DNA of 53,074 nt from Patescibacteria group bacterium (GCA_004322205.1 SCSN01000002.1:1-53074), one strand, 5' to 3'; positions 1,394 through 53,074 are shown, numbered from the stretch's first letter. Program-made: numbers and translations. Notes: generated by a model from the letters alone, not told the origin.

Positions 1394-1394
1394 T

Positions 1395-21827: not shown

Positions 21828-21850
21828 AAGAAGAGAATCAAGAGCCGCTT

Positions 21851-22946: not shown

Positions 22947-23022
22947 ATTCGGTGTGATGAGGTGGTGTGATGGCAGAAGCCTTTATTTTGTTTGGGGTTT
23001 GGGTAAAATGTATCTACACGAT

Positions 23023-23097
23023 GCGCGCTTAGCTCAGTGGTAGAGCGTCTCGTTGACGTCGAGAAGGTCATAGGTTCAATCCCTATAGCGCGTACCA
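23023..23097 (+). tRNA. tRNA-Val (anticodon GAC)
   Basis: gcgcgct-ta-gctc-agtggta-gagc, anticodon stem tctcg/cgaga with loop ttGACgt, T arm atagg-ttcaatc-cctat, acceptor agcgcgt-a, and an encoded CCA. Confidence 0.9.
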
Positions 23098-23180
23098 CGT
23101 TGGAAAAGTCAATGCCTCACCCCGCCTCGGGCGGGGCTCGGCGACCAAATCGTACGGACTTTTCGGGGCAAAAAGAAATT
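23098..23180 (+). repeat. tRNA-downstream conserved element, copy 2
   Basis: GGAAAAGTCAATG...CCCCGCC-tcg-GGCGGGG-CTCGGCGACCAAATCGTA...TTTTCGGGGCAAAAAG parallels the element after tRNA-Phe motif by motif. Confidence 0.5.
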
Positions 23181-23447
23181 CCCGATTCCGTAAAATATGG
23201 TTCGAGCCGATGTTTTTAACGGGTTCTTTTGCGGTTTTGATTCGTGCGGCTCCGCCTTTCCAGATTTTCGCAGGGGGCCTTCCTCGCCGCCGCAAGCGGC
23301 GAAAGCGGTTCGGACTAATTCAAGTATTCTGCCCAGAATCTGACTTTCACATTATCCCATCTCATTTTACGCTATACATTTATGTAGTAGTATGCGCATG
23401 GAAACACACCTCGTAAATTCCCAGAACATCTGACGGAGAGTGATTAT

Positions 23448-24290
23448 GTGTGGAGACTGCCACTTTGTCTCGCCGCTGTTCTCGCTATTGCTCCGGCGTC
23501 AACTTCCCAGGGACAAGAACCGCAATTCAGAGGTTTGCCAATGTTCAATCCGCGTTTCACGAAGGAGCAAATAATCCGAGCTGTAAAGGACAAATGCCCC
23601 AAACCAATATTCAACGTGGACTGCGAGGAATTCATCGCGCACAGGTTCAAGCAAGGGTCCCGGACGCCGGGCTACAAGGCACTCAAGACCTTGTGGCTTT
23701 CTTGGAGAAGAGCACGGAGAAGCCCTGCCCACAGAGGGAGTGGGTATTTGCCCGGATTGCGGTCTACCCGGATGGCAGGCGTATCATTCAGAGTTGACTG
23801 GAAGCGGCCCTGTAACAAGGATGAGACATTTCTCTTTGACGAGCACGATCGACCATTCATGTCTGAGGATTGCGGTAATGTGCCTTTTCCTCTGACTCCG
23901 ATATCTCTTGTCGCGCAGGAACCCCCCGTCCCGCCGACGGCAGCCCAAGCTCCGGAGGCAGAGCCAACTACGTCAAAAGTAGATACGGTCAGAGTAGTTG
24001 TGACCAAGAACTCTGTTACAGTAAAAAGTCCTTTTGGCCAGAGAAATGTCCGAGATTCTCTCGAAATGTCTTTAACGAACCATCTAGTCGTGAAAGTTAT
24101 CGTAAAGGACATAAAGAGAGGACCGAACCGGTTGGAGCGAGTCGGCTTCTTTACGGCCGGAGCTGTTGTCGGTTATGTCTTTGGACACGAGGGCGGAGCA
24201 TGTCAGACCCTTGGCTCTCCGGTGAATCCTCCAAACGAAAGAGCCAGGATTATTATTCCGCTGGCACGAATAGTACTCCGACTCCCGTAA
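23448..24290 (+). CDS. secreted hypothetical protein (signal peptide), in a GC-richer tRNA-proximal segment
   Basis: MWRLPLCLAAVLAIAPASTSQG is a signal peptide. No recognisable domain. A possible terminator sits at 24312-24345. Confidence 0.45.
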   Translation: MWRLPLCLAAVLAIAPASTSQGQEPQFRGLPMFNPRFTKEQIIRAVKDKCPKPIFNVDCEEFIAHRFKQGSRTPGYKALKTLWLSWRRARRSPAHRGSGYLPGLRSTRMAGVSFRVDWKRPCNKDETFLFDEHDRPFMSEDCGNVPFPLTPISLVAQEPPVPPTAAQAPEAEPTTSKVDTVRVVVTKNSVTVKSPFGQRNVRDSLEMSLTNHLVVKVIVKDIKRGPNRLERVGFFTAGAVVGYVFGHEGGACQTLGSPVNPPNERARIIIPLARIVLRLP

Positions 24291-24476
24291 TTTACCCCCT
24301 CGTTCTAGCATGGGCGGCGCCGTCGGGCCCCGCCTTTTTCTTTTAGGTGGCCTTGGGCGATTCTTCTTGTGCGGGGTTGACCGATGCACGACGGCGGGTA
24401 TACTGGTCTGAGAAAGAGAACTTACTTGACACGTTGTAGATGATAGTGTATAAATGCAGCTGTCAAACTATTATTA

Positions 24477-27400: not shown

Positions 27401-27704
27401 CGGTGGTGGTGGGGGCTCGCACCGGAGATTTCCGCCGCCTCCTGCCGAAGAAGTGCTTGGCGCATTCTCTGTTGTTTTACCTGAACTCGGCGGTTCTGCT
27501 GGAGAAGTACTCGGAGCTTCCGGCGGGCTTCCGCAGGAGGTAATTGAAGAAACTGATGAAACGGAGCAAGTGATTCCGGAACTCGCGGCCGTCGAGGAAG
27601 CAGCCGGGAATCTCGGATTTAACAAATCTATTCTGCTCTGGATCATTCTTCTCCTCGTTCTTATCTTTATCATTTACAGGATTTTTAGACCAAGAAAGGA
27701 CTGA
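24477..27704 (+). CDS. giant secreted surface protein with tandem prealbumin-fold (SpaA/Cna-B-like) repeat domains, poly-Gly tracts and a C-terminal TM anchor
   Basis: N-terminal TM/signal. Three repeats of the type VVKVVDNGNNPHPKQVSDFLLFVDGLPVVSG...YTVTET...GY..S...CPSGQATLLPGDNVTCTVTNTY (also at 25090 and 27050). It has G7/G9 runs and the C-terminus ILLWIILLLVLIFIIYRIFRPRKD. Confidence 0.7.
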   Translation: MQHLKSQQNMIIFLGREKRLYAKSLLVPLLVVTLALQTLGFFTYIREAAAAPVTIFSDGFENTPQFTNPLWEDADPLWNVSSSNAHSGTRKAFVIGNTGGFDDMLRQDESTVGYQNIVLTYWFRADDLESSQNDKVDVQWSPDAGVTWNTLFSIDDNWDADPNLWIQQTHSLPAGANNNPNFRFRFKAKLNTPNDKVYLDDVSLEGDVVPANLTVNKVVVNNNGGAKTVSDFPLFVNGQPVVSAQANQFAPGQYTVSETNQMGYTATIGGDCDAQGNVTLSSGDNKICTVTNDDVAPILTVVKVVDNGNNPHPKQVSDFLLFVDGLPVVSGLATTTPAGTHTVTETTHELYTSSYSPECPSGQATLLPGDNVTCTVTNTYTPPASTSTGAILITKFLCPGGTELSRDANGPAADGAITPPESCIPDPGEHFGYIHEPNRPNGDFSGPFPGLDDSQLFTVAGQTDANGHLEIRRLSRLGRYDLAEVRESGERIPQGPVLGFFCVGDTNSGSDNYDSTFFPERGAMFCAVYNEGRVEAPPEDDECNPTEDSVVSDSNTIVLEASSSPAAELSFIHPAWSATVGSPDARWIWEIDGVANPTTDEEKTFVRAFNLIGDPTGGSLRLASDNSYEARLNGQPVGSDLSENNFSSSDEWDVGSILRTGANELIIKVKNWALPEGTPQTNPAGLLYRLRWTGRQCGGEEEPPREDPGTSMIFIRKYIDGARATITSALERLFKVLVVGGPNGDLLLSPENQYQNQSTEILNFQNHWEMQEETTFLNGESNVIPAGGECSQGKFRLVGYTFGDSWDEAQSSAGTSTTDVILNSISSDKYIIVWNEVCPDDEDNGGGGGGGPTTGELIVTKIVENGDNPTPKSISDFSLFVFSTSTGTTTLTSSATSTLSAGDYQVSETIDPDYDAVIGGDCSSSGNVTVVAGQTKTCTITNTYAPAIGGNPEDGGGNGDGSADSSVSGASTGGGGGGGGSHRRFPPPPAEEVLGAFSVVLPELGGSAGEVLGASGGLPQEVIEETDETEQVIPELAAVEEAAGNLGFNKSILLWIILLLVLIFIIYRIFRPRKD

Positions 27705-27726
27705 CCTGTGTTAAAAAGTAAGGGAA

Positions 27727-27759
27727 CAAAAAGTGCCCCACCAGTCGGGGCACTTTTTG
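27727..27759 (+). terminator. rho-independent terminator
   Basis: aaaaagtgcccc-accagtc-ggggcactttttg. Confidence 0.75.
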
Positions 27760-27833
27760 TATGGAAAATCCCCATAATTTGTCCAACTCAAGTTTCTTGA
27801 ATATAAGTGTAAATCGTGATATAATATAGGAAA

Positions 27834-28859
27834 GTGCATACACAACTGAAAGATAAGAAACATTTGAAAAAGTATTTCATTCCAAATCGCGACAACGACT
27901 ACAAACCACACATTTTGCGGGAAACTTCTGTTGCGGTAATTGCCTTTATTGCGGTGGTTGTGTTTTTTGGTGGCGTTCTCCATAGCGTTGTTCTCACTAA
28001 GACGGATCTTTTAAGCGCCGTCATTCCAAAGATTCTCGCCGACTTGGCAAACAGCGATCGGTTCTCAAGCAATCTTGACGCTCTTCAAGTTAGTTCCCTG
28101 CTCGAAGAAGCGGCCCGGCGGAAAGCAGAAGATATGGCGGCCAAGAGTTACTTCGCTCACGACAGTCCCGACGGAAAGACGCCTTGGCATTGGTTTGGCG
28201 AAGTCGGCTACAACTTTAGCTATGCCGGCGAAAATTTAGCGGTCAATTTTACCGATTCCGAAGCAGTCAATGCCGCCTGGATGGCTTCGCCTGCCCACCG
28301 CGCCAATATCTTAAACAGCACCTTTACAGAAATTGGAATAGCAACAGCTAAAGGGATATACAAGGGGCAGGAGACGATTTTTGTAGTGCAGATGTTCGGC
28401 AAACCCCGTTTCGCGGGGCAGCTTGCGTCTCTGCAAACGTTCCAAGGCGCAACAGTAACCACTATTCCCGCTCCTGCAAGCTCTGCAGGAACCGCTGCGG
28501 CACCAGAAACTAAGCCGCCAGAAACTGCGCCACGATCTGTCCTCGGAGAGGCGGGAGGAGCCCCGTCTGCTGACGAAACAGTGGCTCTAGCGCAAAACTC
28601 TCCCCTGGGAGAGGAGCGGTTGCCGGAGCCGCAGGGAAATCCCACCGAGCGTCTTCTTACCAATCCTTCACAAATCATTCGTTTTCTTTACGGTACCCTA
28701 TTTGCGCTGGTTGTAATCTCGCTTATTCTTATGATTTTCATCGAGGTTCGCAAACAGCACCCTCTTCACATTTTCTACGGCCTAGCTCTTCTTGCACTTA
28801 TTATCGGCCTGTTCTTTGCTTACAAAACATTTATTATTGATAGAGTCATTATTTTGTAA
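27834..28859 (+). CDS. CAP/SCP (PR-1-like) domain protein, membrane-anchored at both ends
   Basis: AAKSYFAHDSPDGKTPWHWFGEVGYNFSYAGENLAVNF...AWMASPAHRANIL is the CAP domain signature (HxxxxxGENla; W..S..H..N.L). It has an N-terminal TM helix, an Ala/Pro-rich linker and a C-terminal TM helix. Confidence 0.7.
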   Translation: MHTQLKDKKHLKKYFIPNRDNDYKPHILRETSVAVIAFIAVVVFFGGVLHSVVLTKTDLLSAVIPKILADLANSDRFSSNLDALQVSSLLEEAARRKAEDMAAKSYFAHDSPDGKTPWHWFGEVGYNFSYAGENLAVNFTDSEAVNAAWMASPAHRANILNSTFTEIGIATAKGIYKGQETIFVVQMFGKPRFAGQLASLQTFQGATVTTIPAPASSAGTAAAPETKPPETAPRSVLGEAGGAPSADETVALAQNSPLGEERLPEPQGNPTERLLTNPSQIIRFLYGTLFALVVISLILMIFIEVRKQHPLHIFYGLALLALIIGLFFAYKTFIIDRVIIL

Positions 28860-28861
28860 TT

Positions 28862-29755
28862 ATGGAACGCATACCAGAAACATCGCCGGAGTCTTTTGAG
28901 GGCGATGGTAAAAATGAAAAGACGCCAGCGGAAGGAAAAAGAGATAGAGATTCAGGTCAAACCGTTGGTCGCAAACTCACGAAGCTGGGGAGAAAAATTG
29001 CTCTGGCTGCTACTCTGGCTGGAGCCGTACCGGGCCAAGCCAAAGCCGAGACGCCTAGAGATATTGATTCTAACAAACCAACCGCTGCTGCTGTGGTAGA
29101 GGAGGGAAAAGAAAAAACCACAGCCCAAGCAGATACGCTTCGCGTCGGAGGCACGATTGAAGCAGGCGGCAGAATTCGAACTGCTCGCCCTCTTCGCGGC
29201 ATCGGCGGGGATGTTCGCGCCGGTGGAGACGTTCGAGGCACTCGAAGGAACCCGGTTGGGGGAGACGTAAGGAGAACCGGCGGCTGGGTACCCTTTGCCG
29301 GCGGAGATGTTCCGGCTGGTGGTGTTGTCTACGGCGCCGGAGGGACAGTAGAAGCTGGCGGGAACATTCAAACACTAGCTGATACAACTACGCTTAAGGA
29401 GAAGACCGATTCTTTGCACAATATTATCAAATCAATGAACAAAAGTGAGCGAGAAGCATGGCCTCCTCCTCAGGGGATGGAAGGACTGTTGGCTAGTAAG
29501 GAAATTGTCCTTATGACGACTGAACGAGGAATGAGGAGAGCGATTGAAATCATACTAAGACTTCAGTCAGTGGGTGTGAAAGTTTCGTATAAAGTTGTTC
29601 CATCACGTCCCAATATGTCGAGGGCTGCCAACGCGCGCTATCATAATCGTGATTTGCAGACCATGCAGGCGATTGAATCAATCATCAATGATGTAGTTCC
29701 AATCAAATCTGATTCAACGTCTGAACCGATCGATCTGGAGATTTTCATCGATTAA
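28862..29755 (+). CDS. secreted protein with GGDV(R) pentapeptide-like repeats
   Basis: Signal-peptide-like segment RKIALAATLAGAVPGQAKA. The repeats are GGDVRAGGDVRGTRRNPVGGDVRRTGG...GGDVPAGGVV.GAGGTVEAGG. Confidence 0.45.
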   Translation: MERIPETSPESFEGDGKNEKTPAEGKRDRDSGQTVGRKLTKLGRKIALAATLAGAVPGQAKAETPRDIDSNKPTAAAVVEEGKEKTTAQADTLRVGGTIEAGGRIRTARPLRGIGGDVRAGGDVRGTRRNPVGGDVRRTGGWVPFAGGDVPAGGVVYGAGGTVEAGGNIQTLADTTTLKEKTDSLHNIIKSMNKSEREAWPPPQGMEGLLASKEIVLMTTERGMRRAIEIILRLQSVGVKVSYKVVPSRPNMSRAANARYHNRDLQTMQAIESIINDVVPIKSDSTSEPIDLEIFID

Positions 29756-45656: not shown

Positions 45657-46952
45657 ATGGGAAATTTGAGTAAATTTCAACTCATCCTAATCGGTGTTTT
45701 CGCTTTTTTCATCATCGTTGGCGTTGTTGTCTTTGCTTTCTCAAAGGGAAAGGGCCAAGTTCAGGCGGAGGTGACGATTTGGGGGACAGTCCCAGAGGCA
45801 ACCTTTTCCAAAGTTTTTGTCGAATTGCCGCTCTATCAGGACAGGACGGTATCGGTGAGGTACGTTGAAAAGCCTCAAGCGAACTTTAGTGGTGAGTATG
45901 TGGAAGCGCTGGCGCGAGATGCCGGTCCGGATATTATACTTGCGCCGCATGAAGTGATTCTTTCCGAGCGCCGAAAGCTCTTTGCTATTCCCTACAATTC
46001 TTTTCCCGAACGCATCTTTCGCGATACTTTTCTTGAGGAGGGAGAGCTTTTCTTTTTTCCGGAGGGGATTCTGGGCTTGCCGCTCACTGTTGACCCTCTT
46101 CTTCTCTACTGGAATCGGGATATCTTTTCGGGCGCCGGTTTGGCACAGCCGCCGAAGTTCTGGGCAGAATTCTTTGAGCTTTCGCAAAAACTTACCCAGC
46201 GCGACGGGCTACTCAACATTACCCAGTCGGCGGTGGCGCTCGGAGAGTATCGCAACATTCGCGGAAGCAAAGAGCTTATTGTCACCTTGGTGATGCAGGC
46301 GGGCAACCCCATTGTTCTCAAAAGCGAAAACGCGTTTGCTTCTGTTCTTGCCGAGACGCTTAATAAAGCCGCGCCGCCCGCCGAATCGGCGCTGAATTTT
46401 TATACTCAATTTTCCAATCCGGCCAAGCCGTTTTATTCTTGGAATCGCTCCCTGCCGGATTCCCAGCAAATGTTTCTAGCCGGCGATCTGGCCCTTTATA
46501 CGGGCCTTGCTTCGGAGTTACCGCTTCTCAAGCTCAAAAATCCCAATCTTAATTTTGACATTGCTCTCCTGCCGCAATCGCAGTCTGATGAGCGCAATTC
46601 AATCTACGGCAAAATGCTTGCTTTCGCCATCTCCAAACAGACGCGCAACCTGCCGGCGGCTTTTAAGGTTGCCACGCAACTAATCGGCCGAGATTCAGCA
46701 AAAGGTTTTGCTGACTCTCTCTCTATGGCACCTGCCCGCCGAGATCTTCTCTCGCGCCCGCCAGGGGATGCCTTCGGTGCCGTGCTCTACCAGAGTGCTC
46801 TCATCGCTCGCGGCTGGCTCGACCCCAATCAAGAAGGAACTTCAAAAATTTTTAGCGAAATGATTGAGGACACGACTAGCGGACACCTGCGGCTCGAGCA
46901 GGCGATTAGAGTGGCGGCCGGAAAAATTAGCGAGCTTCTCAAATCATGGTAG
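45657..46952 (+). CDS. membrane-anchored extracellular solute-binding-protein-like protein (SBP family 1-like)
   Basis: N-terminal TM anchor, then VTIWGT...LYWNRDIF...PKFWAEFFEL, typical of sugar-type ABC substrate-binding proteins. No permease or ATPase genes lie adjacent. Confidence 0.5.
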   Translation: MGNLSKFQLILIGVFAFFIIVGVVVFAFSKGKGQVQAEVTIWGTVPEATFSKVFVELPLYQDRTVSVRYVEKPQANFSGEYVEALARDAGPDIILAPHEVILSERRKLFAIPYNSFPERIFRDTFLEEGELFFFPEGILGLPLTVDPLLLYWNRDIFSGAGLAQPPKFWAEFFELSQKLTQRDGLLNITQSAVALGEYRNIRGSKELIVTLVMQAGNPIVLKSENAFASVLAETLNKAAPPAESALNFYTQFSNPAKPFYSWNRSLPDSQQMFLAGDLALYTGLASELPLLKLKNPNLNFDIALLPQSQSDERNSIYGKMLAFAISKQTRNLPAAFKVATQLIGRDSAKGFADSLSMAPARRDLLSRPPGDAFGAVLYQSALIARGWLDPNQEGTSKIFSEMIEDTTSGHLRLEQAIRVAAGKISELLKSW

Positions 46953-47404
46953 GAAAGAATGTGCGAAACGTTATAAGTGTTATAGCTGTTATAAGTGTTC
47001 TAGCTGTCGTGAGCGTTCTATTGATTGCGCCGTTTTTTGTTTCTGCCGCAGAACCGACCGTTCCGCCTCCGCCGCGCTCGGGAGGGTCGTTTCCGAGTTT
47101 AATAGTTTGTGATGGTCCGGACTGCAACTTCAGCAGTTTTATCCTCTTCATAAAAAATCTCATTACCGCCCTCGTCTACACTTCTATTCCTCTTGCCGCC
47201 ATTTCGTTTGCCTGGGCAGGGTTTCTGCTTCTGACGTCCGGTGGAAGTGTTGCTAAAAAAGATGAAGCCAAAGGAATTTTCAAAAAGGCCGCCCTCGGCT
47301 TCATTTTTGTTCTTGCTGCCTGGCTCATCGTCTACTTTATTACGAGCATTTTGCTCAATACTCGAGTTGATCCGAATCTTATTCTACTTCAGCCGTCTTC
47401 GTGA
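46946..47404 (+). CDS. pilin-like two-helix small membrane protein, paralog 1 (VirB2/TrbC-like)
   Basis: Signal/TM, a PPPP linker and the conserved C-terminal module LAAISFAWAGFLLLTSGGSVAKKDEAKGIFKKAALGFIFVLAAW, shared with the five downstream paralogs. Confidence 0.6.
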   Translation: MVGKNVRNVISVIAVISVLAVVSVLLIAPFFVSAAEPTVPPPPRSGGSFPSLIVCDGPDCNFSSFILFIKNLITALVYTSIPLAAISFAWAGFLLLTSGGSVAKKDEAKGIFKKAALGFIFVLAAWLIVYFITSILLNTRVDPNLILLQPSS

Positions 47405-47421
47405 CATGCTAGAATACGTAC

Positions 47422-47829
47422 ATGAAAATTAGGCACAGAAGTCTTGTGTTTTTGGGCTTATTTTTTATTTTGTTTGGAACTTTTGTCCTGTCGGTTTCTG
47501 CTGTTCATCAGGGCACAGAGCATCCCCCTGTCCCGGGCACAGAGCCTCCCGGTATCATCACACTCCAAAACCCCTTCAAGCACGGCGACAATCTCTACGA
47601 TTTCATTGTGGCAGTCATTAAAAATATCATTCTTCCTGTCGGCGGCGTGATTGCCGTTATGGCTTTTATCTACTCCGGCTTTCTCTTTGTCACGGCGCAG
47701 GGCAATGAGGAAAAACTCAAGACCGCCAAAAAGGCTTTTCTCTACACCGTCATCGGCACTGTCATTCTCCTCGGAGCTTGGGTCATCGCTCTTCTCATTG
47801 AAACAACAATAAATCAGCTCACTAGCTAA
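47422..47829 (+). CDS. pilin-like two-helix small membrane protein, paralog 2
   Basis: Signal peptide, then VIAVMAFIYSGFLFVTAQGNEEKLKTAKKAFLYTVIGTVILLGAW. Confidence 0.6.
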   Translation: MKIRHRSLVFLGLFFILFGTFVLSVSAVHQGTEHPPVPGTEPPGIITLQNPFKHGDNLYDFIVAVIKNIILPVGGVIAVMAFIYSGFLFVTAQGNEEKLKTAKKAFLYTVIGTVILLGAWVIALLIETTINQLTS

Positions 47830-47830
47830 T

Positions 47831-48265
47831 ATGCGTTCCGCTATCGTCTCTCTTTTCCTTGTTCTTGCTGTAGCTGCTCTAGCACCGCAGCCAGTCTCGG
47901 CACTTAACTGCGGCACTACTCTTTCAGTAGTGTCCACCGATATCAGCGGGATTCCGTCCGGATTTACGGTCAACCAGCCGAAAAATTTTGAGGAGCTAGT
48001 CTGCTTTGCCGTCATTCACATTAACACCATCCTCTTTATCCTCGCCAGCGCCACTCTTCTCGTCTTTTTCTGGGGGGTGGCGAAGTTTGTTCTTGCTGCC
48101 GGAGATGAAAAGAAGATTGGTGAGGGTAAAGAGCTCATGAAATGGGGGATTATTGCGCTCTTTGTAATGTTTTCCGTCTGGGGGATTCTGCAGCTTTTTT
48201 ATAGCGACCTTTTTGGCGGAAGAATCGGCATCCCCAAACTTCCTGAAGCCACCCGAACACCATGA
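47831..48265 (+). CDS. pilin-like two-helix small membrane protein, paralog 3
   Basis: Signal peptide (AAL-APQPVSA), then LLVFFWGVAKFVLAAGDEKKIGEGKELMKWGIIALFVMFSVW. Starts 1 nt after paralog 2. Confidence 0.65.
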   Translation: MRSAIVSLFLVLAVAALAPQPVSALNCGTTLSVVSTDISGIPSGFTVNQPKNFEELVCFAVIHINTILFILASATLLVFFWGVAKFVLAAGDEKKIGEGKELMKWGIIALFVMFSVWGILQLFYSDLFGGRIGIPKLPEATRTP

Positions 48266-48540
48266 CACTACTCAATGTTCTCTTCGGCATAGCATTACTT
48301 ATAAAAAAGCTAATTCCTCTGGCTTTTGTGGCGGCGCTTTTGTTTTTCTTTTGGGGCATCGCTAAGTTTATTTTTAAATCTGGGGACGAAAAAGCGATAG
48401 AAGAAGGAAAACGCATTATAAAGTGGGGTCTAATCGCCCTCTTTGTCATTGCGGCCATTGGCGGAATCATAAGTTTTCTCCAGCAGGATATTTTAGGAGG
48501 AAGCGTTCCCATTTCTATTATTCAAGATCAGAAGCCCTAA
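48262..48540 (+). CDS. pilin-like two-helix small membrane protein, paralog 4
   Basis: LLFFFWGIAKFIFKSGDEKAIEEGKRIIKWGLIALFVIAAIGG. Overlaps paralog 3 by 4 nt. Confidence 0.65.
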   Translation: MTLLNVLFGIALLIKKLIPLAFVAALLFFFWGIAKFIFKSGDEKAIEEGKRIIKWGLIALFVIAAIGGIISFLQQDILGGSVPISIIQDQKP

Positions 48541-48626
48541 TTATCCCCAACCCCTTGTTTTTCAATGTTTTTTTGATATTATTGGATTTATACCCTAAAG
48601 GTCTTTATAAGTAACCTGAAATAATA

Positions 48627-48995
48627 ATGAAAAAAGTTTTAGGAGGTGCTGCTCTTGCCTATGCTCTTCCGCTGGTGGCGCTTGCCGCCCCCTTGAGCAA
48701 TGTTCAGCAGCTTATCCAAGCGCTTGGCAATGTTGTTGATATTCTGCTGCCGATCGTTGTTGCCATTGCTCTTCTCGCCTTTTTCTGGGGACTGGCAAGT
48801 TTCATCTTTGCCGCTGGTGATGAGGAGAAGAGGGATAAGGGGAAGCAGATTATGAAGTGGGGTCTCATTGCCCTCTTCGTAATGGTGGCAGTCTGGGGCA
48901 TTGTGAGCTTCATCGGCAACGCTCTCGGCATTGGCATCGGTCAAGACTTGCCTTCTGTTCCCGGTGTCAGTTTGACTCCCGGTTCTACGCCGTAA
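48627..48995 (+). CDS. pilin-like two-helix small membrane protein, paralog 5
   Basis: Signal peptide, then LLAFFWGLASFIFAAGDEEKRDKGKQIMKWGLIALFVMVAVWG. Confidence 0.65.
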   Translation: MKKVLGGAALAYALPLVALAAPLSNVQQLIQALGNVVDILLPIVVAIALLAFFWGLASFIFAAGDEEKRDKGKQIMKWGLIALFVMVAVWGIVSFIGNALGIGIGQDLPSVPGVSLTPGSTP

Positions 48996-49012
48996 CCCCC
49001 TCTCCATAAGGA

Positions 49013-49279
49013 ATGGACGCCTCCGGCATCTTAAACAAAATAAATGCCGTTATTCTGAATCCGCTGATTCTCCTTCTCTTTACGATTGCACTTCTCTTTT
49101 TTTTCTGGGGAATTTTTCAGTTCGTCAGCCGCACCGGGGACGAGACAAAGCGGGCAGAAGGCAAGAAACATATTCTCTGGGGGCTTGTTGGAATGTTCAT
49201 TATGTTTTCCGTCTTCGGTCTGATTCGGATTATTCTCAACACTCTCGGAGTAACTCCGACTTATCCTTTTAATCCCTAG
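49013..49279 (+). CDS. pilin-like two-helix small membrane protein, paralog 6
   Basis: LLFFFWGIFQFVSRTGDETKRAEGKKHILWGLVGMFIMFSVFG. Followed by a strong terminator. Confidence 0.65.
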   Translation: MDASGILNKINAVILNPLILLLFTIALLFFFWGIFQFVSRTGDETKRAEGKKHILWGLVGMFIMFSVFGLIRIILNTLGVTPTYPFNP

Positions 49280-49303
49280 AGTCGGTTTACAGAAGTTTGA
49301 TTC

Positions 49304-49337
49304 AACCCCCCAGATGCGCGCATCTGGGGGGTTTTGC
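49304..49337. terminator. bidirectional rho-independent terminator between the pilin array and the convergent GC-rich module
   Basis: caacccccc-agatgcgcgcatct-ggggggttttg. Confidence 0.8.
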
Positions 49338-49388
49338 AAATGAAAAGGCGAGTTGTTCTCTTAAGAGCCGAGAACAACTCGCCGTCTG

Positions 49389-51449
49389 CTACATCGCGAC
49401 AGGGCTCGTCGGCAGCCGCCGCGTTACTCTGATTCGTACGATAGAATCAGGTGAATCTGACCGAAACCGCCAAGGTCCGACCTCGTAGGGGAGCCGAACG
49501 TCCGAGAGAATCTCCACCTTTCGCTCTCTTCCTGATGGTGTCAGGACCCAAAAGGCCCTTCGCCGCTCCTCGGGGAAGTCGAACATAAGTGGGGCGATGA
49601 GCTCGACTGGCTCGCTCCAGTTGGATCCCGCCCTCGGTCCGATGACAAGCGAATCTCGGAACTCTCCTGCGGTGAACCGAACTGGTACTGCCACTGCTTG
49701 CCCCGGCAATTCGTGCCCGAGCCAGCAGGGAGCCGACTCCCGCCAGTGACCCCAACCTCCTTTGGTGTTCCGGTAGAGCCACTTGGCGAATCTCGTATTT
49801 CCATCCAACGTCTCGATGTTGTAATCGAGGCCGTCAGCGGCCGTGAGAGAGTCAGCGGTGCGCCGCCAGCGAGGCATGATCTGGAACGCTCCCATCGCGC
49901 CGCTCTGGGGATTTGCGGTGACTCGCGTGTGTGCCGAGTCGGCCCAGTGATTGAAGCCGCTCTCGCAGGCTGCGATCTCCGCCAGAATCGAATCTTCCGG
50001 TGCCTTGAGCAGAACAAGAATTGAATCCCTGTCTCGCCCGCGCCATCTGTCCCGCGGATTCCCTTCGAACTTCCGCGAGAGGGAAGCCGGCTGAACCGCA
50101 ATCGGCGCCGTTGATTCCATCTTCTCCTTGGAGAAAATCTTCTCTCCCACCTTCCATAGTGCGAATAGCACTAGTGTGGCTAGGGCGGTGATTTTCAAGA
50201 AGGAAAAGCTTCTCTTGCCGCTTGAGAAGTAATCGGTTGTGGCCCGCCAGTACTCCTTCCGCTTTCTGAAGATTGCTACCAGCACCCATAAGCCCAGTGC
50301 CCCAAGCAGGAGGAAGAGCCAGAGTCCGAGTAGGAAGAACAGAATTGCTTTGCTCCATGATGGGACAGAGGAGAGAGAACCGGCGAGCTTCCCGTATGGA
50401 ATCTGCCGGACGAGCCAGACCCCAAGAGCAAGTACCAGAAGAGCGAATGCTACACGACGTGGTTTCTTGGGCTTCGGGACTCTCGTCCATAACCTCTTCA
50501 TTTCGCCCAACAGGCTTGTGGTGAATGTACTACCGGCTTTCACTACAGATCTCGCGGCGGTTCTTGCTGCGCCTACTGCAATGGTGATAACAATCATCAC
50601 CACTGCGAACATGAGTCCAGCAAACCACCAGAGACTGTCTCTAATGATTTTCCCAGTTGCGGCCCCGGCGGGGACAATTTGTCTCCTCCAGAGGCGGAGT
50701 GCAAGGAGAGCTAGACGCAATCTCCCATGCCTAGCACTTCTTGCTTTTCTTCTCCAAAAGTTGCGGAACGAAGCCAGTGCGGTTCTCCATGCGCCCGCCG
50801 CGCAATTTATTGTGCGACGGTAGTTGTGAGATGTTCGCGCCCGCCACCTGCGGATATGCTCGGTTACCCACAGGATTGCGTTCGCGACTATTGCGATTCC
50901 TCTGACGGGTAGCGTCACGACACGCAGGAGAAGTACTGCGGAGAACCGGAGTGTGTTTTGCAGCCATCCCGCGATGTCTCCTCCCGTCCCCCACGCGAGG
51001 TTTCGGAGAAGGAGTGTCTGAAGTCCTGCGGACCGCAGACCGCTTTCCCGCACCTCGTAAGGTGTTCCGTGCGGCATGACTTTTGCCCGCTGCATCGTGA
51101 GAGTCAGTGCTCCCCATCGCAGGCAGAGCTGCCTCTTGGCGCGGTAGCGTTGCATCCGGTGCCTGTGCTTCCGCCGAATTTTCCGCCACTTACTCCACGC
51201 TTCTGTGAAGCTGTAGCGATAAGGACCCGGCGGCCCAACGCGGAACCACCTGCGCCACTCCTTACTTCTGACGGTTGCCAAGATTTCTCGAGGCAAGTGT
51301 CGAAGAAGTAGAGAGAGTTGTCCCACCAACTTTACCCACTTCCACTCCTCTCGAGTTGGAACTTCTTCCGGTTCAGGTTCGACGGGCCAAATTACCCCGT
51401 CGCTGAAGACAAATCCCCGATCTCTGTTCAACGGGCGTTGCGGAGTCAT
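49389..51449 (-). CDS. polytopic membrane protein with C-terminal lytic transglycosylase (SLT/VirB1-like) domain
   Basis: SLT catalytic motif ILAEIAACESGFNHWA (E-S), GAMGAFQIMPRW (GLMQIMP-like) and a downstream Y/W-rich segment. The N-terminal ~450 aa have 6 or more TM helices and an extremely Arg/Trp-rich composition. The region is GC-rich by eye. Confidence 0.6.
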   Translation of the reverse strand: MTPQRPLNRDRGFVFSDGVIWPVEPEPEEVPTREEWKWVKLVGQLSLLLRHLPREILATVRSKEWRRWFRVGPPGPYRYSFTEAWSKWRKIRRKHRHRMQRYRAKRQLCLRWGALTLTMQRAKVMPHGTPYEVRESGLRSAGLQTLLLRNLAWGTGGDIAGWLQNTLRFSAVLLLRVVTLPVRGIAIVANAILWVTEHIRRWRARTSHNYRRTINCAAGAWRTALASFRNFWRRKARSARHGRLRLALLALRLWRRQIVPAGAATGKIIRDSLWWFAGLMFAVVMIVITIAVGAARTAARSVVKAGSTFTTSLLGEMKRLWTRVPKPKKPRRVAFALLVLALGVWLVRQIPYGKLAGSLSSVPSWSKAILFFLLGLWLFLLLGALGLWVLVAIFRKRKEYWRATTDYFSSGKRSFSFLKITALATLVLFALWKVGEKIFSKEKMESTAPIAVQPASLSRKFEGNPRDRWRGRDRDSILVLLKAPEDSILAEIAACESGFNHWADSAHTRVTANPQSGAMGAFQIMPRWRRTADSLTAADGLDYNIETLDGNTRFAKWLYRNTKGGWGHWRESAPCWLGHELPGQAVAVPVRFTAGEFRDSLVIGPRAGSNWSEPVELIAPLMFDFPEERRRAFWVLTPSGRERKVEILSDVRLPYEVGPWRFRSDSPDSIVRIRVTRRLPTSPVAM

Positions 51450-51584
51450 AACTTTTCCTTTCTATGTTTCGGTCTGTGTAAATGAGCGTCTGATCGGATT
51501 ATATCATAAAAACAACTAATGTCAAACAAATGAAAAGGGACCAGACACTCCTACTGTGAATGGCCCCATGCGACACAGTGTCGC

Positions 51585-52778
51585 TTATTTTTTGTCTTCC
51601 TTCTTCTCTCCTTGTCCGAGAGGGATTGCCGGAACTACGCCTGCCCCGCCCTCAACGTAGGTGTTGAGTTGGCTGACATTCTGCCACTTCCAGGCGACAA
51701 CTCGAGCAGGATCCTCGGCCACGTAGCCAATCGTGCTCTCGAGGAAGCTCCGCTCTCCCTGACCGGCGAGCACTCTTTGTCTCTTTTGCCGTTCGGCTTC
51801 GTACTCGAGGGTGGTGAGCTCGCGGTACTTGTCTCCGAGCTCTCCCGACGGCTCGATGTTATCGATCTGGACAAGCCGCACCCTAACACCGTAGTGCAGA
51901 GTGAAGTCAGCGAGAATCTCGAGGGACGAAAGTGTTCTCGAGACAGAATCTCGATCCGAGACAGAATCTCGATCCTTGTCCTTGCCTATGTCCATCTTTG
52001 CGTATTCCATCGAACGAGTCCAGCTTCGAACGCGGTCAGCGAGCTGGTTTTCGAGTGCCTCAAGCCAGTGCACAGCTCCGTACACCGCCTTGTAGGGGTT
52101 GACGATCTGCGCGGTGATGGCGAGCACAATCCTAAGAGGCACTCCGTCCTTGTCCTCGGCGTTCTTGATTGCGACGTAGTAGACATCGTCCTGACGAACA
52201 AGAACGTAGTCGAGGCTCCGCTTCTCTGTCTTGTACTGGTACCTGATATCCTCCCCTTGCTGCTCCACCTGCTCTCTGCTTGTCCAGGTCAGGGTGTAAA
52301 GCTTAACTTGGTCGAGGTAGGGAATACCGAGGATGTGAATTCCCCCCGTGAGCCGATCCAGCCGCGATGGAGTGGTGGTAGTTATGGATGAGTCGGGGAC
52401 AACATCCCACTGATGCGGTTTGACAAACTCGAGCTTGCTGTCCAGGAACAGCTGTTTGATCTCTTTCTCATTCCCGCCGCCGATGAGATTTTGCTCGCCC
52501 TTGGTCCATTGGTCACTGTCGCGCCAGTGGTGTCCGGTACAGGCCATTACTGCCTTGCGGAACTTCCCACCCCGCTCAATGATGATCGCTTGCCGCTCAA
52601 GGGCTAGGACGAGAAAGAATCGTAGTTCGGCGAGACCCCTTGCAATGAGAAGGAGTAAGAATGGTGAGAGAACTACGAGAACAATTCCCAACACGACCAG
52701 AAGTGCCAGTGCGGCCGATGCGAAGCTTGCCATAATTAACGTCCCTTCGTTTGTGAAGGAAAATATGTGATAGAACAA
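51585..52778 (-). CDS. SPFH/band-7 (stomatin/HflK-like) domain membrane protein
   Basis: N-terminal TM helix plus SPFH core (GVPLRIVLAITAQIVNPYKAVYGAV...LVQIDNIEPSGELGDKYRELTTLEYEAERQKRQRVLAGQGE). It contains a perfect 2x18-bp tandem duplication (DRDSVS x2) at 51939-51974. Confidence 0.7.
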   Translation of the reverse strand: MFYHIFSFTNEGTLIMASFASAALALLVVLGIVLVVLSPFLLLLIARGLAELRFFLVLALERQAIIIERGGKFRKAVMACTGHHWRDSDQWTKGEQNLIGGGNEKEIKQLFLDSKLEFVKPHQWDVVPDSSITTTTPSRLDRLTGGIHILGIPYLDQVKLYTLTWTSREQVEQQGEDIRYQYKTEKRSLDYVLVRQDDVYYVAIKNAEDKDGVPLRIVLAITAQIVNPYKAVYGAVHWLEALENQLADRVRSWTRSMEYAKMDIGKDKDRDSVSDRDSVSRTLSSLEILADFTLHYGVRVRLVQIDNIEPSGELGDKYRELTTLEYEAERQKRQRVLAGQGERSFLESTIGYVAEDPARVVAWKWQNVSQLNTYVEGGAGVVPAIPLGQGEKKEDKK

Positions 52779-52825
52779 ATATCTGTCCGTGATTCTATCA
52801 CAGTAATTTAAAAAGTCAAATTTTG

Positions 52826-52906
52826 TGCTGGGGAGAGGACTTGCACCTCCACGCCTTGCGGCACTAGCTCCTAGGGCTAGCGTGTCTTCTGTTTCACCAC
52901 CCCAGC
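52826..52906 (-). tRNA. atypical tRNA-Leu-like gene (anticodon TAG; type II variable arm), possibly degenerate
   Basis: Reverse complement gctgggg-tg-gtg-aaacagaaga-cac-g-ctagc-ccTAGga-gctag-(t gcc gcaa ggc gt)-ggagg-tgcaagt-cctct-ccccagc-a. The acceptor stem is perfect and the Leu-like D arm has a 3-bp stem. However, the D loop lacks G18G19, T-loop position 55 is G, and position 33 is C. Confidence 0.5.
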
Positions 52907-53007
52907 ACTTTTCTAATTGAGCTAATTAAGCTAATTAGCTAACTAGTTTCCTAGTGTCCTCAATTCTAAACCACGCGCGAACCTATTTTGAGCGAAGCGA
53001 CTGACTA

Positions 53008-53030
53008 ATGCCGCGCCTGCGGCGCGGCAT
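53008..53030. terminator. GC-rich perfect hairpin (atgccgcgcc-tgc-ggcgcggcat)
   Basis: A 10-bp perfect inverted repeat, followed by a partial copy of the CTCGGGCGGGGC motif at the window end. Confidence 0.4.
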
Positions 53031-53074
53031 TCCCGCCCACCACCCAACGCTCGGGCGGGGCGGGCAGGAAAGGG

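What the first reader, a model, noticed from the sequence alone, without database searches (positions are those of the whole stretch)
46946..52906. Six tandem VirB2/TrbC-like pilin paralogs converging on a GC-rich module (SLT-domain polytopic protein, SPFH protein) bounded by an atypical tRNA-Leu
Six consecutive small ORFs (88-152 aa) share one architecture: a variable N-terminus or signal peptide, a hydrophobic helix, the motif FFWG(I/L/V)A.F(I/V)..AGDE.K...GK.(I/L)(I/M)KWG(L/I)IALFV, then a second hydrophobic helix. This is the two-helix, charged-loop topology of T4SS VirB2/TrbC-type pilins. The array is co-directional and tightly packed, with 1-nt gaps or 4-nt overlaps, and ends at a strong terminator. 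The convergent block, which looks higher in GC by eye, encodes a large Arg/Trp-rich polytopic membrane protein. Its C-terminus has lytic-transglycosylase catalytic motifs (AACESGFNHWA, GAMGAFQIMP), the VirB1-like function needed to breach peptidoglycan. Next to it is an SPFH scaffold protein, and the block ends at a structurally odd tRNA-Leu-like gene. This is the profile of a horizontally acquired, tRNA-associated pilus or secretion/conjugation module. The paralog expansion suggests antigenic or functional diversification of the fibre subunit. Possible VirB4, VirB6 or VirD4 partners would lie beyond the window end.
Basis: partly seen in the sequence, partly recalled or inferred. Interest (0 to 1): 0.8.

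Follow-up and report, generated by a model that had tools for sequence, protein, structure and literature searches.

The report
Conserved six-gene VirB2-like pilin array
This is a chromosomal gene cluster of an ultra-small Patescibacteria (CPR) bacterium that encodes six different VirB2-like pilin subunits next to a cell-wall-cutting enzyme; pilin arrays of this kind are already published for this phylum, and the cluster is inherited with the chromosome rather than recently acquired.

Summary
Six co-directional small ORFs (46946-49279) all pass the Pfam gathering score for PF18895 T4SS_pilin. The convergent block encodes a membrane-anchored protein with a lysozyme-like domain, then an SPFH protein, then tRNA-Leu(UAG). 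The window is a whole 53-kb contig of a Patescibacteria MAG, so nothing lies beyond its end.

The pilin reading is supported but not new. Quinonero-Coronel et al. 2025 report 441 such arrays of 2-11 genes in Patescibacteria. Southlakia has an essential six-pilin cluster.

The "horizontally acquired, tRNA-linked island" reading is not supported. The order GyrA, methyltransferase, SBP, pilins, then convergent lysozyme and SPFH recurs in dozens of Paceibacteria species. I found no integrase and no att repeat. The six pilins are one-to-one positional orthologues across genomes, so the array is old and each type is specialised.

Three things appear to be unreported in the literature I could search:
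- The array is always translationally coupled to a sugar-type solute-binding protein.
- No VirB4 or VirD4 family showed up among the neighbours checked near the array.
- The lysozyme-SPFH pair evolves very fast and is a sharp GC-rich island in most relatives, whatever the host GC. This is unexplained.

Verdict: new member of a known kind, moderate interest.

The parts
45657..46952 (+). Membrane-anchored solute-binding protein (SBP_bac_8/SBP_bac_1, sugar type). It is the first gene of the pilin operon, and its stop codon overlaps the start of pilin p1 by 7 nt.
   Evidence: Pfam 42.0 and 30.8 bits, above the cut-offs. One N-terminal transmembrane segment at residues 9-27. The closest solved structures are sugar and maltose ABC binding proteins. 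A pilin array lies directly downstream of its orthologue in every related locus with enough downstream DNA.
46946..47404 (+). Pilin p1 (152 aa). It has a long signal peptide, a Cys pair (CDGPDC) and a divergent two-helix core.
   Evidence: PF18895 35.5 bits. Positional orthologues in L003 and L005 are 59% and 47% identical. The p1 type comes first in 54 of 56 arrays of five or more pilins.
47422..47829 (+). Pilin p2 (135 aa). It has a signal peptide and is the most TrbC-like member.
   Evidence: PF18895 35.8 bits; TrbC PF04956 25.2 bits, below the 27.9 cut-off; NCBIfam NF045849 30.7 bits, below the 40 cut-off. Orthologues are 52-66% identical.
47831..48265 (+). Pilin p3 (144 aa). It has a signal peptide, a Cys pair and the FFWG motif.
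   Evidence: PF18895 32.5 bits. Orthologues are 53-56% identical.
48262..48540 (+). Pilin p4 (92 aa), FFWG type. It has no signal peptide here, although its orthologues do.
   Evidence: PF18895 30.9 bits. Orthologues L003_p4 and L005_p4 are 57-61% identical and carry a leader.
48627..48995 (+). Pilin p5 (122 aa), FFWG type. It has a 20-aa signal peptide and a Pro/Gly-rich tail. It gives the best family match and is the candidate major subunit. An 86-nt gap precedes it.
   Evidence: PF18895 51.5 bits. 330 homologues found, all of those listed carrying PF18895. AlphaFold2 predicts a helix-loop-helix, mean pLDDT 76. In two close genome pairs the fifth pilin of the array is the most conserved (97-99% identity), but in one of those pairs that gene was not shown to be the p5 type.
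49013..49279 (+). Pilin p6 (88 aa), a leaderless FFWG type and the last gene of the array.
   Evidence: PF18895 34.8 bits. It is leaderless in all three genomes compared. The p6 type comes last in 53 of 56 arrays.
49304..49333 (+). Intrinsic terminator of the SBP-pilin operon.
   Evidence: A perfect 15-nt inverted repeat followed by TTTT. dG -27.6 kcal/mol, z -4.3.
49347..49383 (-). Terminator hairpin of the convergent LYS gene.
   Evidence: A 14-bp perfect stem, dG -26.1 kcal/mol, z -6.0, followed by a T-run on the minus strand.
49389..51449 (-). LYS, 686 aa. Residues 1-270 form a basic Arg-rich N-terminal region. Residues ~171-432 contain 4-5 hydrophobic segments. Residues ~484-580 form a lysozyme-like (SLT/SLT_3-type) domain. 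Residues ~590-686 form a beta-rich C-terminal domain.
51498..51525 (-). Consensus sigma-70-type promoter in front of LYS.
   Evidence: TTGACA, 16-nt spacer, TATAAT with an extended TG: 12 of 12 matches.
51585..52733 (-). SPFH/Band_7 membrane protein (382 aa counted from the ATG), just upstream of LYS on the same strand.
   Evidence: Band_7 28.5 bits against a 23.6 cut-off. One N-terminal transmembrane segment. The ATG-start product exists as an exact protein on a Logan contig. An SPFH-family gene lies directly upstream of LYS in 38 of 40 related loci.
52792..52819 (-). Promoter-like site in front of SPFH.
   Evidence: TTGACT, 16-nt spacer, TAGAAT with TG: 10 of 12 matches.
52825..52906 (-). 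tRNA-Leu(UAG), a class II tRNA with an atypical elbow (A18, G55). It is a conserved neighbour of the block.
   Evidence: ARAGORN. Rfam RF00005 44.3 bits. tRNA-Leu(UAG) is in the same relative position in L003, L005, L007, L050 and L067. The alignment shows the two substitutions.

Best explanation
The region is a vertically inherited envelope and host-contact gene cluster of a Paceibacteria-type Patescibacterium. It is made of two convergent operons.

Operon 1 (+ strand) encodes a membrane-anchored sugar-type solute-binding protein that is translationally coupled to six VirB2-like pilins of family PF18895. The six pilins belong to six distinct, anciently diverged types.

Inferred for operon 1: four of the pilins (p1, p2, p3, p5) are exported by Sec and cleaved after an AxA site. 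All six insert in the membrane as helix-loop-helix hairpins. They are then extracted and polymerised by the chromosomal monoderm-type T4SS (VirB4, VirB3/PrgI, VirB6, TrsD) that most Patescibacteria encode elsewhere, usually near dnaA. The product would be a heteromeric pilus or conduit used for contact with, or uptake from, the host cell.

Operon 2 (- strand, with its own consensus promoters) encodes an SPFH scaffold protein and a polytopic membrane protein. The exposed lysozyme-like domain of that protein has the conserved catalytic Glu.

Inferred for operon 2: the enzyme cuts peptidoglycan locally, either the cell's own or the host's, so that the structure can pass. This is a VirB1-like role. 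SPFH may organise or restrain it.

The pilins, the lysozyme protein and SPFH all evolve far faster than the neighbouring housekeeping genes, as expected for surface proteins in a host-epibiont arms race.

Shown here: the family memberships, the folds, the synteny, the orthology, the rates and the GC anomaly. Inferred: pilus assembly, dependence on a T4SS, the substrate of the enzyme, and the roles of the SBP and SPFH.
For: - Pilin identity: all six pass PF18895. The hits from NCBIfam and PDB are weak but point the same way, to pilin-like conjugal-transfer proteins and to TraM of pKM101. The predicted structure is helix-loop-helix.
- Precedent: 441 VirB2-like arrays of 2-11 genes in 383 Patescibacteria assemblies (PMC12102498). 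Southlakia epibionticum has an essential cluster of six divergent VirB2-like pilins (PMC12857230).
- Chromosomal and vertical: the window is otherwise housekeeping (LepA, MurJ, aminoacyl-tRNA synthetases, TsaD, FtsZ, FtsA, GyrA and others). The same gene order is seen in L003-L009 and in the loci found with the SBP. 416 relatives were confirmed and 80 loci were kept. Every locus with enough downstream DNA has 2-8 pilins after the SBP. 43 of the new loci have a convergent LYS after the array, usually within about 50-150 nt, and 38 of 40 have SPFH next to it.
- Specialised subunits: every window pilin has its best hit at the same array position in L003 and L005 (47-66% identity, against 18-52% between paralogues). 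Of 56 arrays with five or more pilins, 54 start with the p1-p2 types, 52 end with p5-p6, and 47 keep the order of types.
- Fast evolution: for L040 against L036, dN is 0.005 for gyrA, 0.032 for SBP, 0.30 for LYS, 0.14 for SPFH and up to 0.27 for the pilins. LYS is only 59% identical where the SBP is 94% identical.
Against: - No VirB4, VirB6 or VirD4 was found in the 53-kb contig among the ORFs scanned, nor within 10 kb of the array in the three relatives that have precomputed Pfam annotation. A scan of 32 large flanking ORFs from the 80 loci showed none among the 25 families listed, out of 93 that matched.
- One relative with this same cluster, GCA_001823695.1, is listed as lacking VirB4, although it is a 0.6-Mb draft MAG.
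- p4 and p6 have no signal peptide.
- The window's own LYS protein does not reach any Pfam gathering score.
- The membrane topology that would put the catalytic domain outside the cell is not resolved.
- Nothing here shows that a pilus is made.
- The constant coupling to an SBP has no counterpart in known T4SSs.
Confidence: 0.55

Rival explanations
1. The pilin array, the lytic transglycosylase and SPFH together form one horizontally acquired pilus or conjugation island that integrated next to tRNA-Leu, with its ATPases just off the contig.
For: The 49-53 kb block is the strongest GC and tetranucleotide outlier of the contig. It abuts the 3' side of a tRNA gene. The LYS protein had no close homologue in the word-indexed search.
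Against: The same order of genes, from S1 and GyrA through the pilins to LYS and SPFH, recurs in dozens of Paceibacteria species, and tRNA-Leu(UAG) follows in the five relatives checked. There is no integrase, relaxase or T4SS ATPase among the scanned genes of the contig. No repeat of the tRNA end lies at the far border. The pilin genes are at or below the contig's GC (0.41-0.52). No genome pair has LYS better conserved than the SBP. There are no PHROG hits.
Confidence: 0.04
2. A T4SS-independent module. The PF18895 proteins are two-helix membrane proteins that work with the co-translated solute-binding protein, for example as a surface or uptake complex that captures sugars or wall fragments released by LYS. 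They are not an extracellular pilus built by VirB4.
For: A pilin array follows the SBP orthologue in every related locus with enough downstream DNA, and the two genes overlap in the window, L003 and L005. No T4SS ATPase was found within 10 kb in the relatives examined. A relative with the cluster is scored VirB4-negative. Two of the six proteins lack leaders. The hairpin fold is not diagnostic.
Against: All sequence-family evidence points to VirB2-type pilins. In Saccharibacteria such arrays sit in the T4SS locus and are essential. VirB4 was detected in most Patescibacteria assemblies (2,474 virB4 genes in a set of 3,035 genomes), and about 40% of VirB4-positive assemblies with pilins have the pilin gene away from virB4. 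No ABC permease or ATPase accompanies the SBP.
Confidence: 0.2
3. This rival concerns only the LYS-SPFH pair. The pair is a replaceable cassette that is repeatedly exchanged by recombination or HGT at a fixed chromosomal slot, from a pool richer in GC. This would explain both its GC offset and its extreme divergence. The pilin operon is native.
For: The pair is the GC maximum of the locus in 29 of 40 relatives, against about 5.7 expected by chance (p 1e-16). Its edges are sharp and fall on gene boundaries. Island GC is about 0.44-0.59 in all but three loci and is nearly independent of host GC (r 0.23). LYS identity collapses to about 20%, or to nothing detectable, between genomes whose SBPs are 71-79% identical.
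Against: There are no mobility genes or flanking repeats. In the closest pair the block aligns collinearly at 62-82% nucleotide identity, not as a replaced segment. LYS similarity rises with SBP similarity (Spearman 0.32), and LYS is never better conserved than the SBP. dS is close to that of the SBP. There are no phage-family or defence-family hits.
Confidence: 0.15
4. A holin-endolysin or bacteriocin-like lysis cassette: small two-transmembrane proteins together with a muramidase.
For: The small proteins have two hydrophobic helices and lie next to a protein with a lysozyme fold.
Against: There are no PHROG matches for any component. All six small proteins match a pilin family, not holins. 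The six types are ordered and conserved. LYS has its own membrane anchor and its own promoter on the opposite strand. The cluster is chromosomal and conserved across species.
Confidence: 0.03

Closest known systems
VirB2-like pilin arrays of Patescibacteria (Quinonero-Coronel et al. 2025, PMC12102498; the six-pilin essential cluster of Southlakia epibionticum ML1, Wang et al. 2023 as cited in PMC12857230)
   Same: Same Pfam family (PF18895). Tandem array of 2-11 genes. Low identity between paralogues: 18-45% over the full alignment here, against a published mean of 25% and maximum of 54%. Monoderm CPR host, chromosomal location, no relaxase.
   Different: In this lineage no virB4 was found near the array, either in the 53-kb contig or within 10 kb in the relatives checked. 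The array is translationally coupled to a solute-binding protein. It is followed by a convergent membrane-lysozyme and SPFH pair. [quoted passage not shown] Neither the fixed order of pilin types nor the one-to-one orthology is mentioned in the passages of that paper I read.
TrbC/VirB2 conjugative pilins of diderm T4SSs (Pfam PF04956; for example TraM of pKM101, PDB 8cw4)
   Same: A leader peptide, then two hydrophobic helices joined by a short charged loop. Weak but direct sequence similarity: p2 scores 25.2 bits to PF04956, and the p5-family profile matches 8cw4 at E 0.018.
   Different: The scores are below the PF04956 gathering cut-off. The host is a monoderm. There are six co-encoded types, two of them leaderless. 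There is no evidence of cyclisation, lipid binding or a filament.
Specialised lytic transglycosylases of secretion systems (VirB1, EtgA) and phage or housekeeping lytic transglycosylases (phiKZ gp144, MltE); Pfam SLT PF01464 and SLT_3 PF18896
   Different: The window protein is below every Pfam cut-off. It has a 270-aa Arg-rich N-terminal region, several transmembrane segments and an extra C-terminal beta domain. It lies on the opposite strand with its own promoter, is paired with SPFH, and evolves about ten times faster (dN) than the neighbouring SBP. Whether it acts as a muramidase or as a lytic transglycosylase is unknown.
SPFH/Band_7 (stomatin, flotillin, HflK/C) membrane scaffolds
   Same: Passes the PF01145 cut-off. 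Has an N-terminal membrane anchor.
   Different: Extremely divergent, at about 20% identity between genomes whose GyrA proteins are 78% identical. No NfeD or protease partner. The partner is a membrane lysozyme-like protein, often with a 4-nt gene overlap in relatives.
tRNA-linked genomic islands and integrative elements
   Same: A compositional outlier lying next to the 3' side of a tRNA gene.
   Different: No integrase, no att repeats, no empty sites seen. The same position and content recur across species. The GC anomaly covers only the two genes LYS and SPFH, not the pilins.

Membership tests
Pfam PF18895 T4SS_pilin (CPR VirB2-like pilins) | Score at or above the family gathering cut-off (26.6 bits) | tested here: met
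   All six ORFs score 30.9-51.5 bits. Every listed homologue of p5 carries PF18895.
Pfam PF18895 T4SS_pilin (CPR VirB2-like pilins) | Two hydrophobic helices joined by a short charged loop | tested here: met
Pfam PF18895 T4SS_pilin (CPR VirB2-like pilins) | N-terminal Sec signal peptide that is cleaved to give the mature pilin | tested here: inconclusive
   By inspection, p1, p2, p3 and p5 have a basic n-region, a hydrophobic h-region and an AxA-like site. p4 and p6 have none. No signal-peptide predictor was available.
Type IV secretion system (functional membership of the locus) | A VirB4-family ATPase and VirB3/VirB6 channel components in the same locus or genome | tested here: not met
   None among the scanned ORFs of the 53-kb contig, and none within 10 kb in L003-L009. 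None among the 25 families listed, of 93 matched, for 32 large flanking ORFs from the 80 loci. Presence elsewhere in the genome could not be tested because the other contigs are not held.
Pfam PF04956 TrbC/VirB2 | Score at or above the gathering cut-off (27.9 bits) | tested here: not met
   Only p2 matches, at 25.2 bits.
NCBIfam NF045849 Mbov_0395 pilin-like conjugal transfer protein | Score at or above the cut-off (40 bits) | tested here: not met
   The best scores are 34.3 (p6), 33.4 (p5) and 30.7 (p2) bits.
Lytic transglycosylase / lysozyme-like superfamily (Pfam SLT PF01464, SLT_3 PF18896) | Score at or above the Pfam gathering cut-off | tested here: not met
   The window protein scores 16.5-18.4 bits to SLT, against a 21.3 cut-off, and gives no SLT_3 hit. 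The positional orthologue in L005 passes SLT_3 (32.8 against 27). 12 of 83 homologues match SLT and 3 match SLT_3 at E <= 0.001.
Lytic transglycosylase / lysozyme-like superfamily (Pfam SLT PF01464, SLT_3 PF18896) | Lysozyme-like alpha-helical fold | tested here: met
Lytic transglycosylase / lysozyme-like superfamily (Pfam SLT PF01464, SLT_3 PF18896) | A conserved catalytic glutamate at the end of the first core helix (the E-S motif) | tested here: met
   E in AACES is invariant in 19-sequence and 83-sequence alignments, as are G..Q, N and W.
Lytic transglycosylase / lysozyme-like superfamily (Pfam SLT PF01464, SLT_3 PF18896) | Formation of a 1,6-anhydro-MurNAc product, which separates a lytic transglycosylase from a hydrolytic lysozyme | not testable with these tools
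   This needs biochemistry.
SPFH / Band_7 (PF01145) | Score at or above the gathering cut-off (23.6 bits) | tested here: met
   28.5 bits over residues 143-334. Orthologues score 36.9 and 27.7 bits.
tRNA-integrated genomic island | An integrase or recombinase gene and a direct repeat of the tRNA end at the distal border | tested here: not met
   No integrase domain in the ORFs scanned. No repeat of the tRNA sequence in 49250-53074.
tRNA-integrated genomic island | Variable presence: relatives with an empty site | tested here: not met
   LYS is found directly after the pilin array in 43 related loci, and SPFH is next to it in 38 of 40. No locus with an empty slot was identified, but in loci where the LYS profile found nothing the downstream genes were not examined individually.
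tRNA-integrated genomic island | Composition that deviates from the host | tested here: met
   The window block has GC 0.55 against 0.50, z about 2.9, and tetranucleotide z about 3.5. The same anomaly is seen in 29 of 40 relatives. It covers only LYS and SPFH.

The most novel reading that the evidence does not exclude
Paceibacteria carry a conserved host-interface supra-operon that has not been described as a unit: SBP, then an ordered set of six VirB2-like pilin types (p1, p2, a variable number of the FFWG types p3-p5, then p5 and the leaderless p6), facing a convergent SPFH and membrane-lysozyme pair. No virB4 was found near it. The lysozyme-SPFH pair is held at its own GC level (about 0.44-0.59 in most loci) with sharp edges in genomes of 0.35 to 0.59 GC, while diverging about ten times faster (dN) than the adjacent SBP. 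This would point to a locus-specific evolutionary process, such as GC-biased gene conversion at a recombination hot spot or recurrent allelic replacement, acting on the enzyme that meets the host wall.
Probability: 0.3. Interest if true: 0.6.

Novelty: new member of a known kind. Interest (0 to 1): 0.35.

Why it matters
Patescibacteria make up a large share of uncultivated bacterial diversity and live attached to host cells. In Saccharibacteria, the one class tested genetically, the T4SS and its VirB2-like pilin array are essential, and their function is unknown (PMC11665869, PMC12857230). This locus adds no new kind of system.

The comparative work does sharpen the picture for the largest class, Paceibacteria, in four ways:
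- The array is an ancient, ordered set of specialised subunit types, not a recent expansion.
- It travels with a solute-binding protein and with a membrane-lysozyme and SPFH pair.
- No virB4 was found near it.
- The wall-cutting enzyme is among the fastest-evolving genes of the neighbourhood and lies in a conserved GC-rich island.

These are concrete, testable leads on which proteins touch the host and on how that interface evolves. For the scan itself, the lesson is that a compositional outlier next to a tRNA is not necessarily an acquired island.

Tried and rejected
- Exact look-ups of window proteins to extend the contig found only Logan contigs of about 1.5 kb. The window is the whole contig.
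- Two of the three word-indexed homology searches, on the 686-aa protein and on its family alignment, returned only the query itself. The exhaustive HMMER search found the family.
- Searching for an att-like repeat of the tRNA gave nothing. A 12-nt repeat brackets LYS, but about 0.4 such repeats are expected by chance.
- Phage origin: no PHROG hits. The viral-contig scan with the LYS alignment could not run because the alignment has no conserved stretch.
- Defence-system membership: no PADLOC hits.
- Dual coding as the cause of the high GC3: there is no conserved overlapping ORF in relatives.
- Hypermutation as the cause of the fast divergence: dS of LYS is close to that of the SBP.
- A functional link between the adjacent tRNA-Leu(UAG) and CUN codon use in the island: CUN use is higher in most relatives (0.78 against 0.63), as the GC alone would predict, but not in the window (0.88 against 0.86).
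- Rfam at a permissive threshold found only the tRNA in 46.0-53.1 kb.
- A literature search for a GC-rich lysozyme island in Patescibacteria found nothing relevant.

Full report
WHAT THE WINDOW IS. The 686-aa protein and pilin p5 are both on record at NCBI as hypothetical proteins EPN83_00320 and EPN83_00310 of a 'Patescibacteria group bacterium' MAG. Their longest contig is 53,074 bp, the length of the window. The window is therefore a complete contig, and nothing can be read beyond its end. Apart from the region of interest it carries ordinary chromosomal genes: MurJ, LepA, a class I aminoacyl-tRNA synthetase, TsaD, thioredoxin-reductase-like, FtsZ, FtsA, HisRS, signal peptidase, Pth, S1, GyrA and eight tRNAs. 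None of its ORFs of 550 aa or more is a VirB4-type or VirD4-type ATPase.

THE OBSERVATION. All six exceed the Pfam gathering score of PF18895 'Type IV secretion system pilin' (30.9-51.5 bits against 26.6). p2 also gives a sub-threshold TrbC/VirB2 hit (25.2 against 27.9). Five of the six give sub-threshold hits, at E <= 0.0025, to the NCBIfam 'Mbov_0395 family pilin-like conjugal transfer protein'.

Some details of the observation need correcting:
- The FFWG...GDE...KWG motif is confined to p3-p6. p1 and p2 are only 18-28% identical to the rest.
- The gene spacings are 17, 1, -4, 86 and 17 nt.
- p1 overlaps the stop of the upstream gene by 7 nt.
- The array ends at a 13-bp GC hairpin with a T-run (dG -27.6). 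It is followed by a second hairpin that serves the convergent gene (dG -26.1).

THE CONVERGENT BLOCK. The 686-aa ORF is real. Its first 90 residues resemble the N-terminus of another family member, P0131 (E 1e-4). An exhaustive HMMER search of 1.84 billion representative proteins gave 83 homologues, all matching within residues ~323-676 and most within ~484-580.

The protein has four parts:
- a very basic N-terminal 270 residues (16.7% Arg, net charge +40);
- 4-5 hydrophobic segments;
- a domain of about 95 residues in which E (of AACES), G..Q, N and W are invariant;
- a beta-rich C-terminal domain.

The next gene passes Band_7/SPFH. Its ATG-start product exists as an exact protein elsewhere. 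LYS has a perfect TTGACA-16-TGnTATAAT promoter, and SPFH has a 10-of-12 promoter.

The tRNA-Leu(UAG) is a normal class II tRNA by Rfam (44.3 bits). Compared with four orthologues it has lost G18 and carries G at position 55, so both partners of one elbow contact have changed.

NOT AN ISLAND. Looking up close homologues of p5 and of LYS on longer contigs gave the same gene order in several other genomes: S1, Lactamase_B_3, a hypothetical gene, GyrA, a methyltransferase, the SBP, then six or seven PF18895 genes, then a convergent LYS of 385-553 aa followed by Band_7. tRNA-Leu(UAG) follows in L003, L005, L007, L050 and L067.

A scan of one genome per GTDB species with an alignment of the SBP confirmed 416 relatives. 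I analysed the best 80 loci, which come from Zambryski-, Campbell-, Yonath- and Taylorbacteria and other Paceibacteria.
- Every locus with enough downstream DNA has 2-8 pilin ORFs directly after the SBP.
- 43 of the new loci have a convergent LYS after the array, usually within about 50-150 nt of the last pilin.
- 38 of 40 have an SPFH-family gene directly upstream of LYS, often with a 4-nt overlap.

There is no repeat of the tRNA at the far border of the window block. No integrase was seen among the ORFs scanned. There are no PHROG or PADLOC hits. The pilin genes are at or below the contig's mean GC. The 'horizontally acquired, tRNA-associated module' reading is therefore not supported.

THE ARRAY IS OLD AND ORDERED. 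Each window pilin has its best match at the same position in the L003 and L005 arrays (47-66% identity), whereas paralogues within the window are 18-52% identical. p6 is leaderless in all three genomes. The window's p4 has lost the leader that its orthologues have.

I classified the pilins of the other loci against the six types. Of 56 arrays with five or more genes, 54 begin with p1-p2, 53 end with p6, 52 end with p5-p6, and 47 keep a non-decreasing order of types. Copy number varies in the middle FFWG types. This argues for specialised subunits, such as major and minor pilins or a heteromer. It argues against recent expansion for antigenic variation, although turnover among the middle types could add variety.

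WHAT IS ALREADY KNOWN. Quinonero-Coronel et al. (Microb Genom 2025, PMC12102498) searched 3,035 Patescibacteria genomes with PF04956 and PF18895.
- They report VirB2-like pilins in 1,948 VirB4-positive assemblies, with the pilin gene near virB4 in 1,135 of them.
- They report 441 arrays of 2-11 pilin genes in 383 assemblies, with mean identity 25% and maximum 54%. They note parallels with Bartonella and Anaplasma.
- They place virB4 of Paceibacteria near dnaA and dnaN.

[quoted passage not shown] The core of the finding is thus a further example of a published phenomenon. That paper does not mention solute-binding proteins, SPFH or SLT, and a further literature search found nothing on the features described next.

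FAST EVOLUTION AND AN UNEXPLAINED GC ISLAND. The window and L003 share 78% identity in GyrA and 53% in the SBP, but only 28% over the C-terminal part of LYS and about 20% in SPFH. Across 903 genome pairs LYS is never better conserved than the SBP. Where the SBPs are 94% identical LYS is 59% identical, and where they are 79% identical LYS is 20% identical.

Nei-Gojobori estimates for the closest pair, L040 against L036:
- gyrA: dN 0.005, dS 0.40
- SBP: dN 0.032, dS 0.79
- LYS: dN 0.30, dS 1.07 (dN/dS 0.28)
- SPFH: dN 0.14
- pilins: dN 0.006-0.27

The acceleration is therefore mainly non-synonymous.

Unexpectedly, it is a conserved property of the LYS-SPFH pair:
- LYS GC averages 0.49 and GC3 0.54, against 0.41 and 0.37 for the adjacent SBP. 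LYS is higher in 37 (GC) and 38 (GC3) of 43 loci.
- In L003 the step is from 0.33-0.41 to 0.48-0.61, and its edges fall exactly on the gene boundaries.
- The highest-GC 2-kb window of the locus falls on the pair in 29 of 40 loci, against 5.7 expected by chance (p 1e-16).
- In the one GC-rich genome (L062, 0.58) LYS has a lower GC3 than the SBP.

Several explanations are not supported. Recent HGT is not, because no pair has LYS well conserved across distant backgrounds and the closest pair aligns collinearly. Hypermutation is not, because dS is near that of the SBP. Overlapping genes are not. A link to the neighbouring tRNA-Leu is not. GC-biased gene conversion at a recombination hot spot, recurrent allelic replacement, and selection on composition all remain untested.

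MECHANISM. Shown: family membership, fold, operon structure, synteny, orthology and evolutionary rates.

Inferred: p1, p2, p3 and p5 are Sec substrates cleaved after AxA. All six sit in the membrane as hairpins and are assembled by a monoderm-type T4SS encoded elsewhere, forming a pilus or conduit at the host contact. LYS opens peptidoglycan locally, which is a VirB1-like role. The published survey notes that other glycosidases may fill this role, because classical VirB1 homologues are scarce in the phylum. SPFH may scaffold or restrain LYS. The co-translated sugar-type SBP may bind a host-derived ligand.

The main weakness is that I found no T4SS ATPase in the contig or near the array in the relatives checked. 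In addition, one relative with the cluster is listed as VirB4-negative, although it is an incomplete MAG. A T4SS-independent role together with the SBP therefore stays a serious rival (0.2).

VERDICT. Novelty: new member of a known kind. Interest is moderate (0.35), carried by the conserved SBP-pilin / LYS-SPFH architecture and the unexplained GC island.

Noticed in passing
window 49389-52778; also L003 11324-14024, L070 5906-8606, L045 13997-15797 and others: The LYS-SPFH gene pair is a sharp GC-rich island in most related genomes, whatever the host GC. It is the GC maximum of the locus in 29 of 40 loci. Mean GC3 is 0.54, against 0.37 for the adjacent SBP. No explanation was found.
   Followed up: partly
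window 52825-52906 (-): Compared with four orthologues, tRNA-Leu(UAG) lacks G18 in the D-loop and has G instead of U at position 55 of the T-loop. Both partners of the G18:psi55 elbow contact differ. It still scores 44.3 bits in Rfam.
   Followed up: partly
window 49337-49348 and 51527-51538: An exact 12-nt direct repeat, CAAATGAAAAGG, brackets the LYS gene together with its promoter and terminator. About 0.4 such repeats are expected by chance in this 3.8-kb stretch, so it is probably coincidence.
   Followed up: partly
window 51939-51974: A perfect 18-nt tandem duplication inside the SPFH gene encodes DRDSVS twice.
   Followed up: no
window 51612-52391 (+): A 259-aa ORF runs antisense to SPFH. 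It is longer than 99% of synonymous-codon shuffles, but relatives have no conserved counterpart, so it is probably a by-product of the GC-rich sequence.
   Followed up: yes
window 48541-48626; L003 9855-10000; L005 9818-10000: A non-coding gap of 86-183 nt precedes the p5-type pilin in all three genomes compared, inside an otherwise tightly packed array. It may hold an internal promoter for the candidate major pilin. It gave no Rfam match and no consensus promoter match.
   Followed up: partly
window 48262-48540: Pilin p4 of the window lacks the signal peptide that its positional orthologues in L003 and L005 carry. The ORF cannot be extended upstream.
   Followed up: partly
window 16811-29755: A run of large predicted surface or secreted proteins: DUF11 (599 aa), He_PIG with PG_binding_1 (628 aa), SpaA_2 prealbumin-like (1075 aa), CAP (341 aa) and unannotated neighbours. 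These may be adhesins of the epibiont.
   Followed up: no
window 17-3614: Four co-directional genes at the start of the contig: 458 aa with no Pfam match, a Laminin_G_3 protein of 236 aa, then 368 aa and 140 aa with no Pfam match. Their function is unknown.
   Followed up: no
L003 10744-11094 and 16683-20360: The L003 array has a seventh pilin that is a recent duplicate of the p5 type. Type IV pilus genes (N_methyl pilins, PilC-like T2SSF, PilB-like T2SSE) lie about 5 kb beyond the LYS-SPFH pair. This is not conserved in L005 or L008.
   Followed up: no
L011-L090 record titles: Many related MAG records are titled 'uncultured Candidatus Saccharibacteria bacterium', although their loci are collinear with Zambryskibacteria and Campbellbacteria (class Paceibacteria). 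One is labelled Nitrospira sp. (L078). These are probably labelling or binning errors.
   Followed up: no
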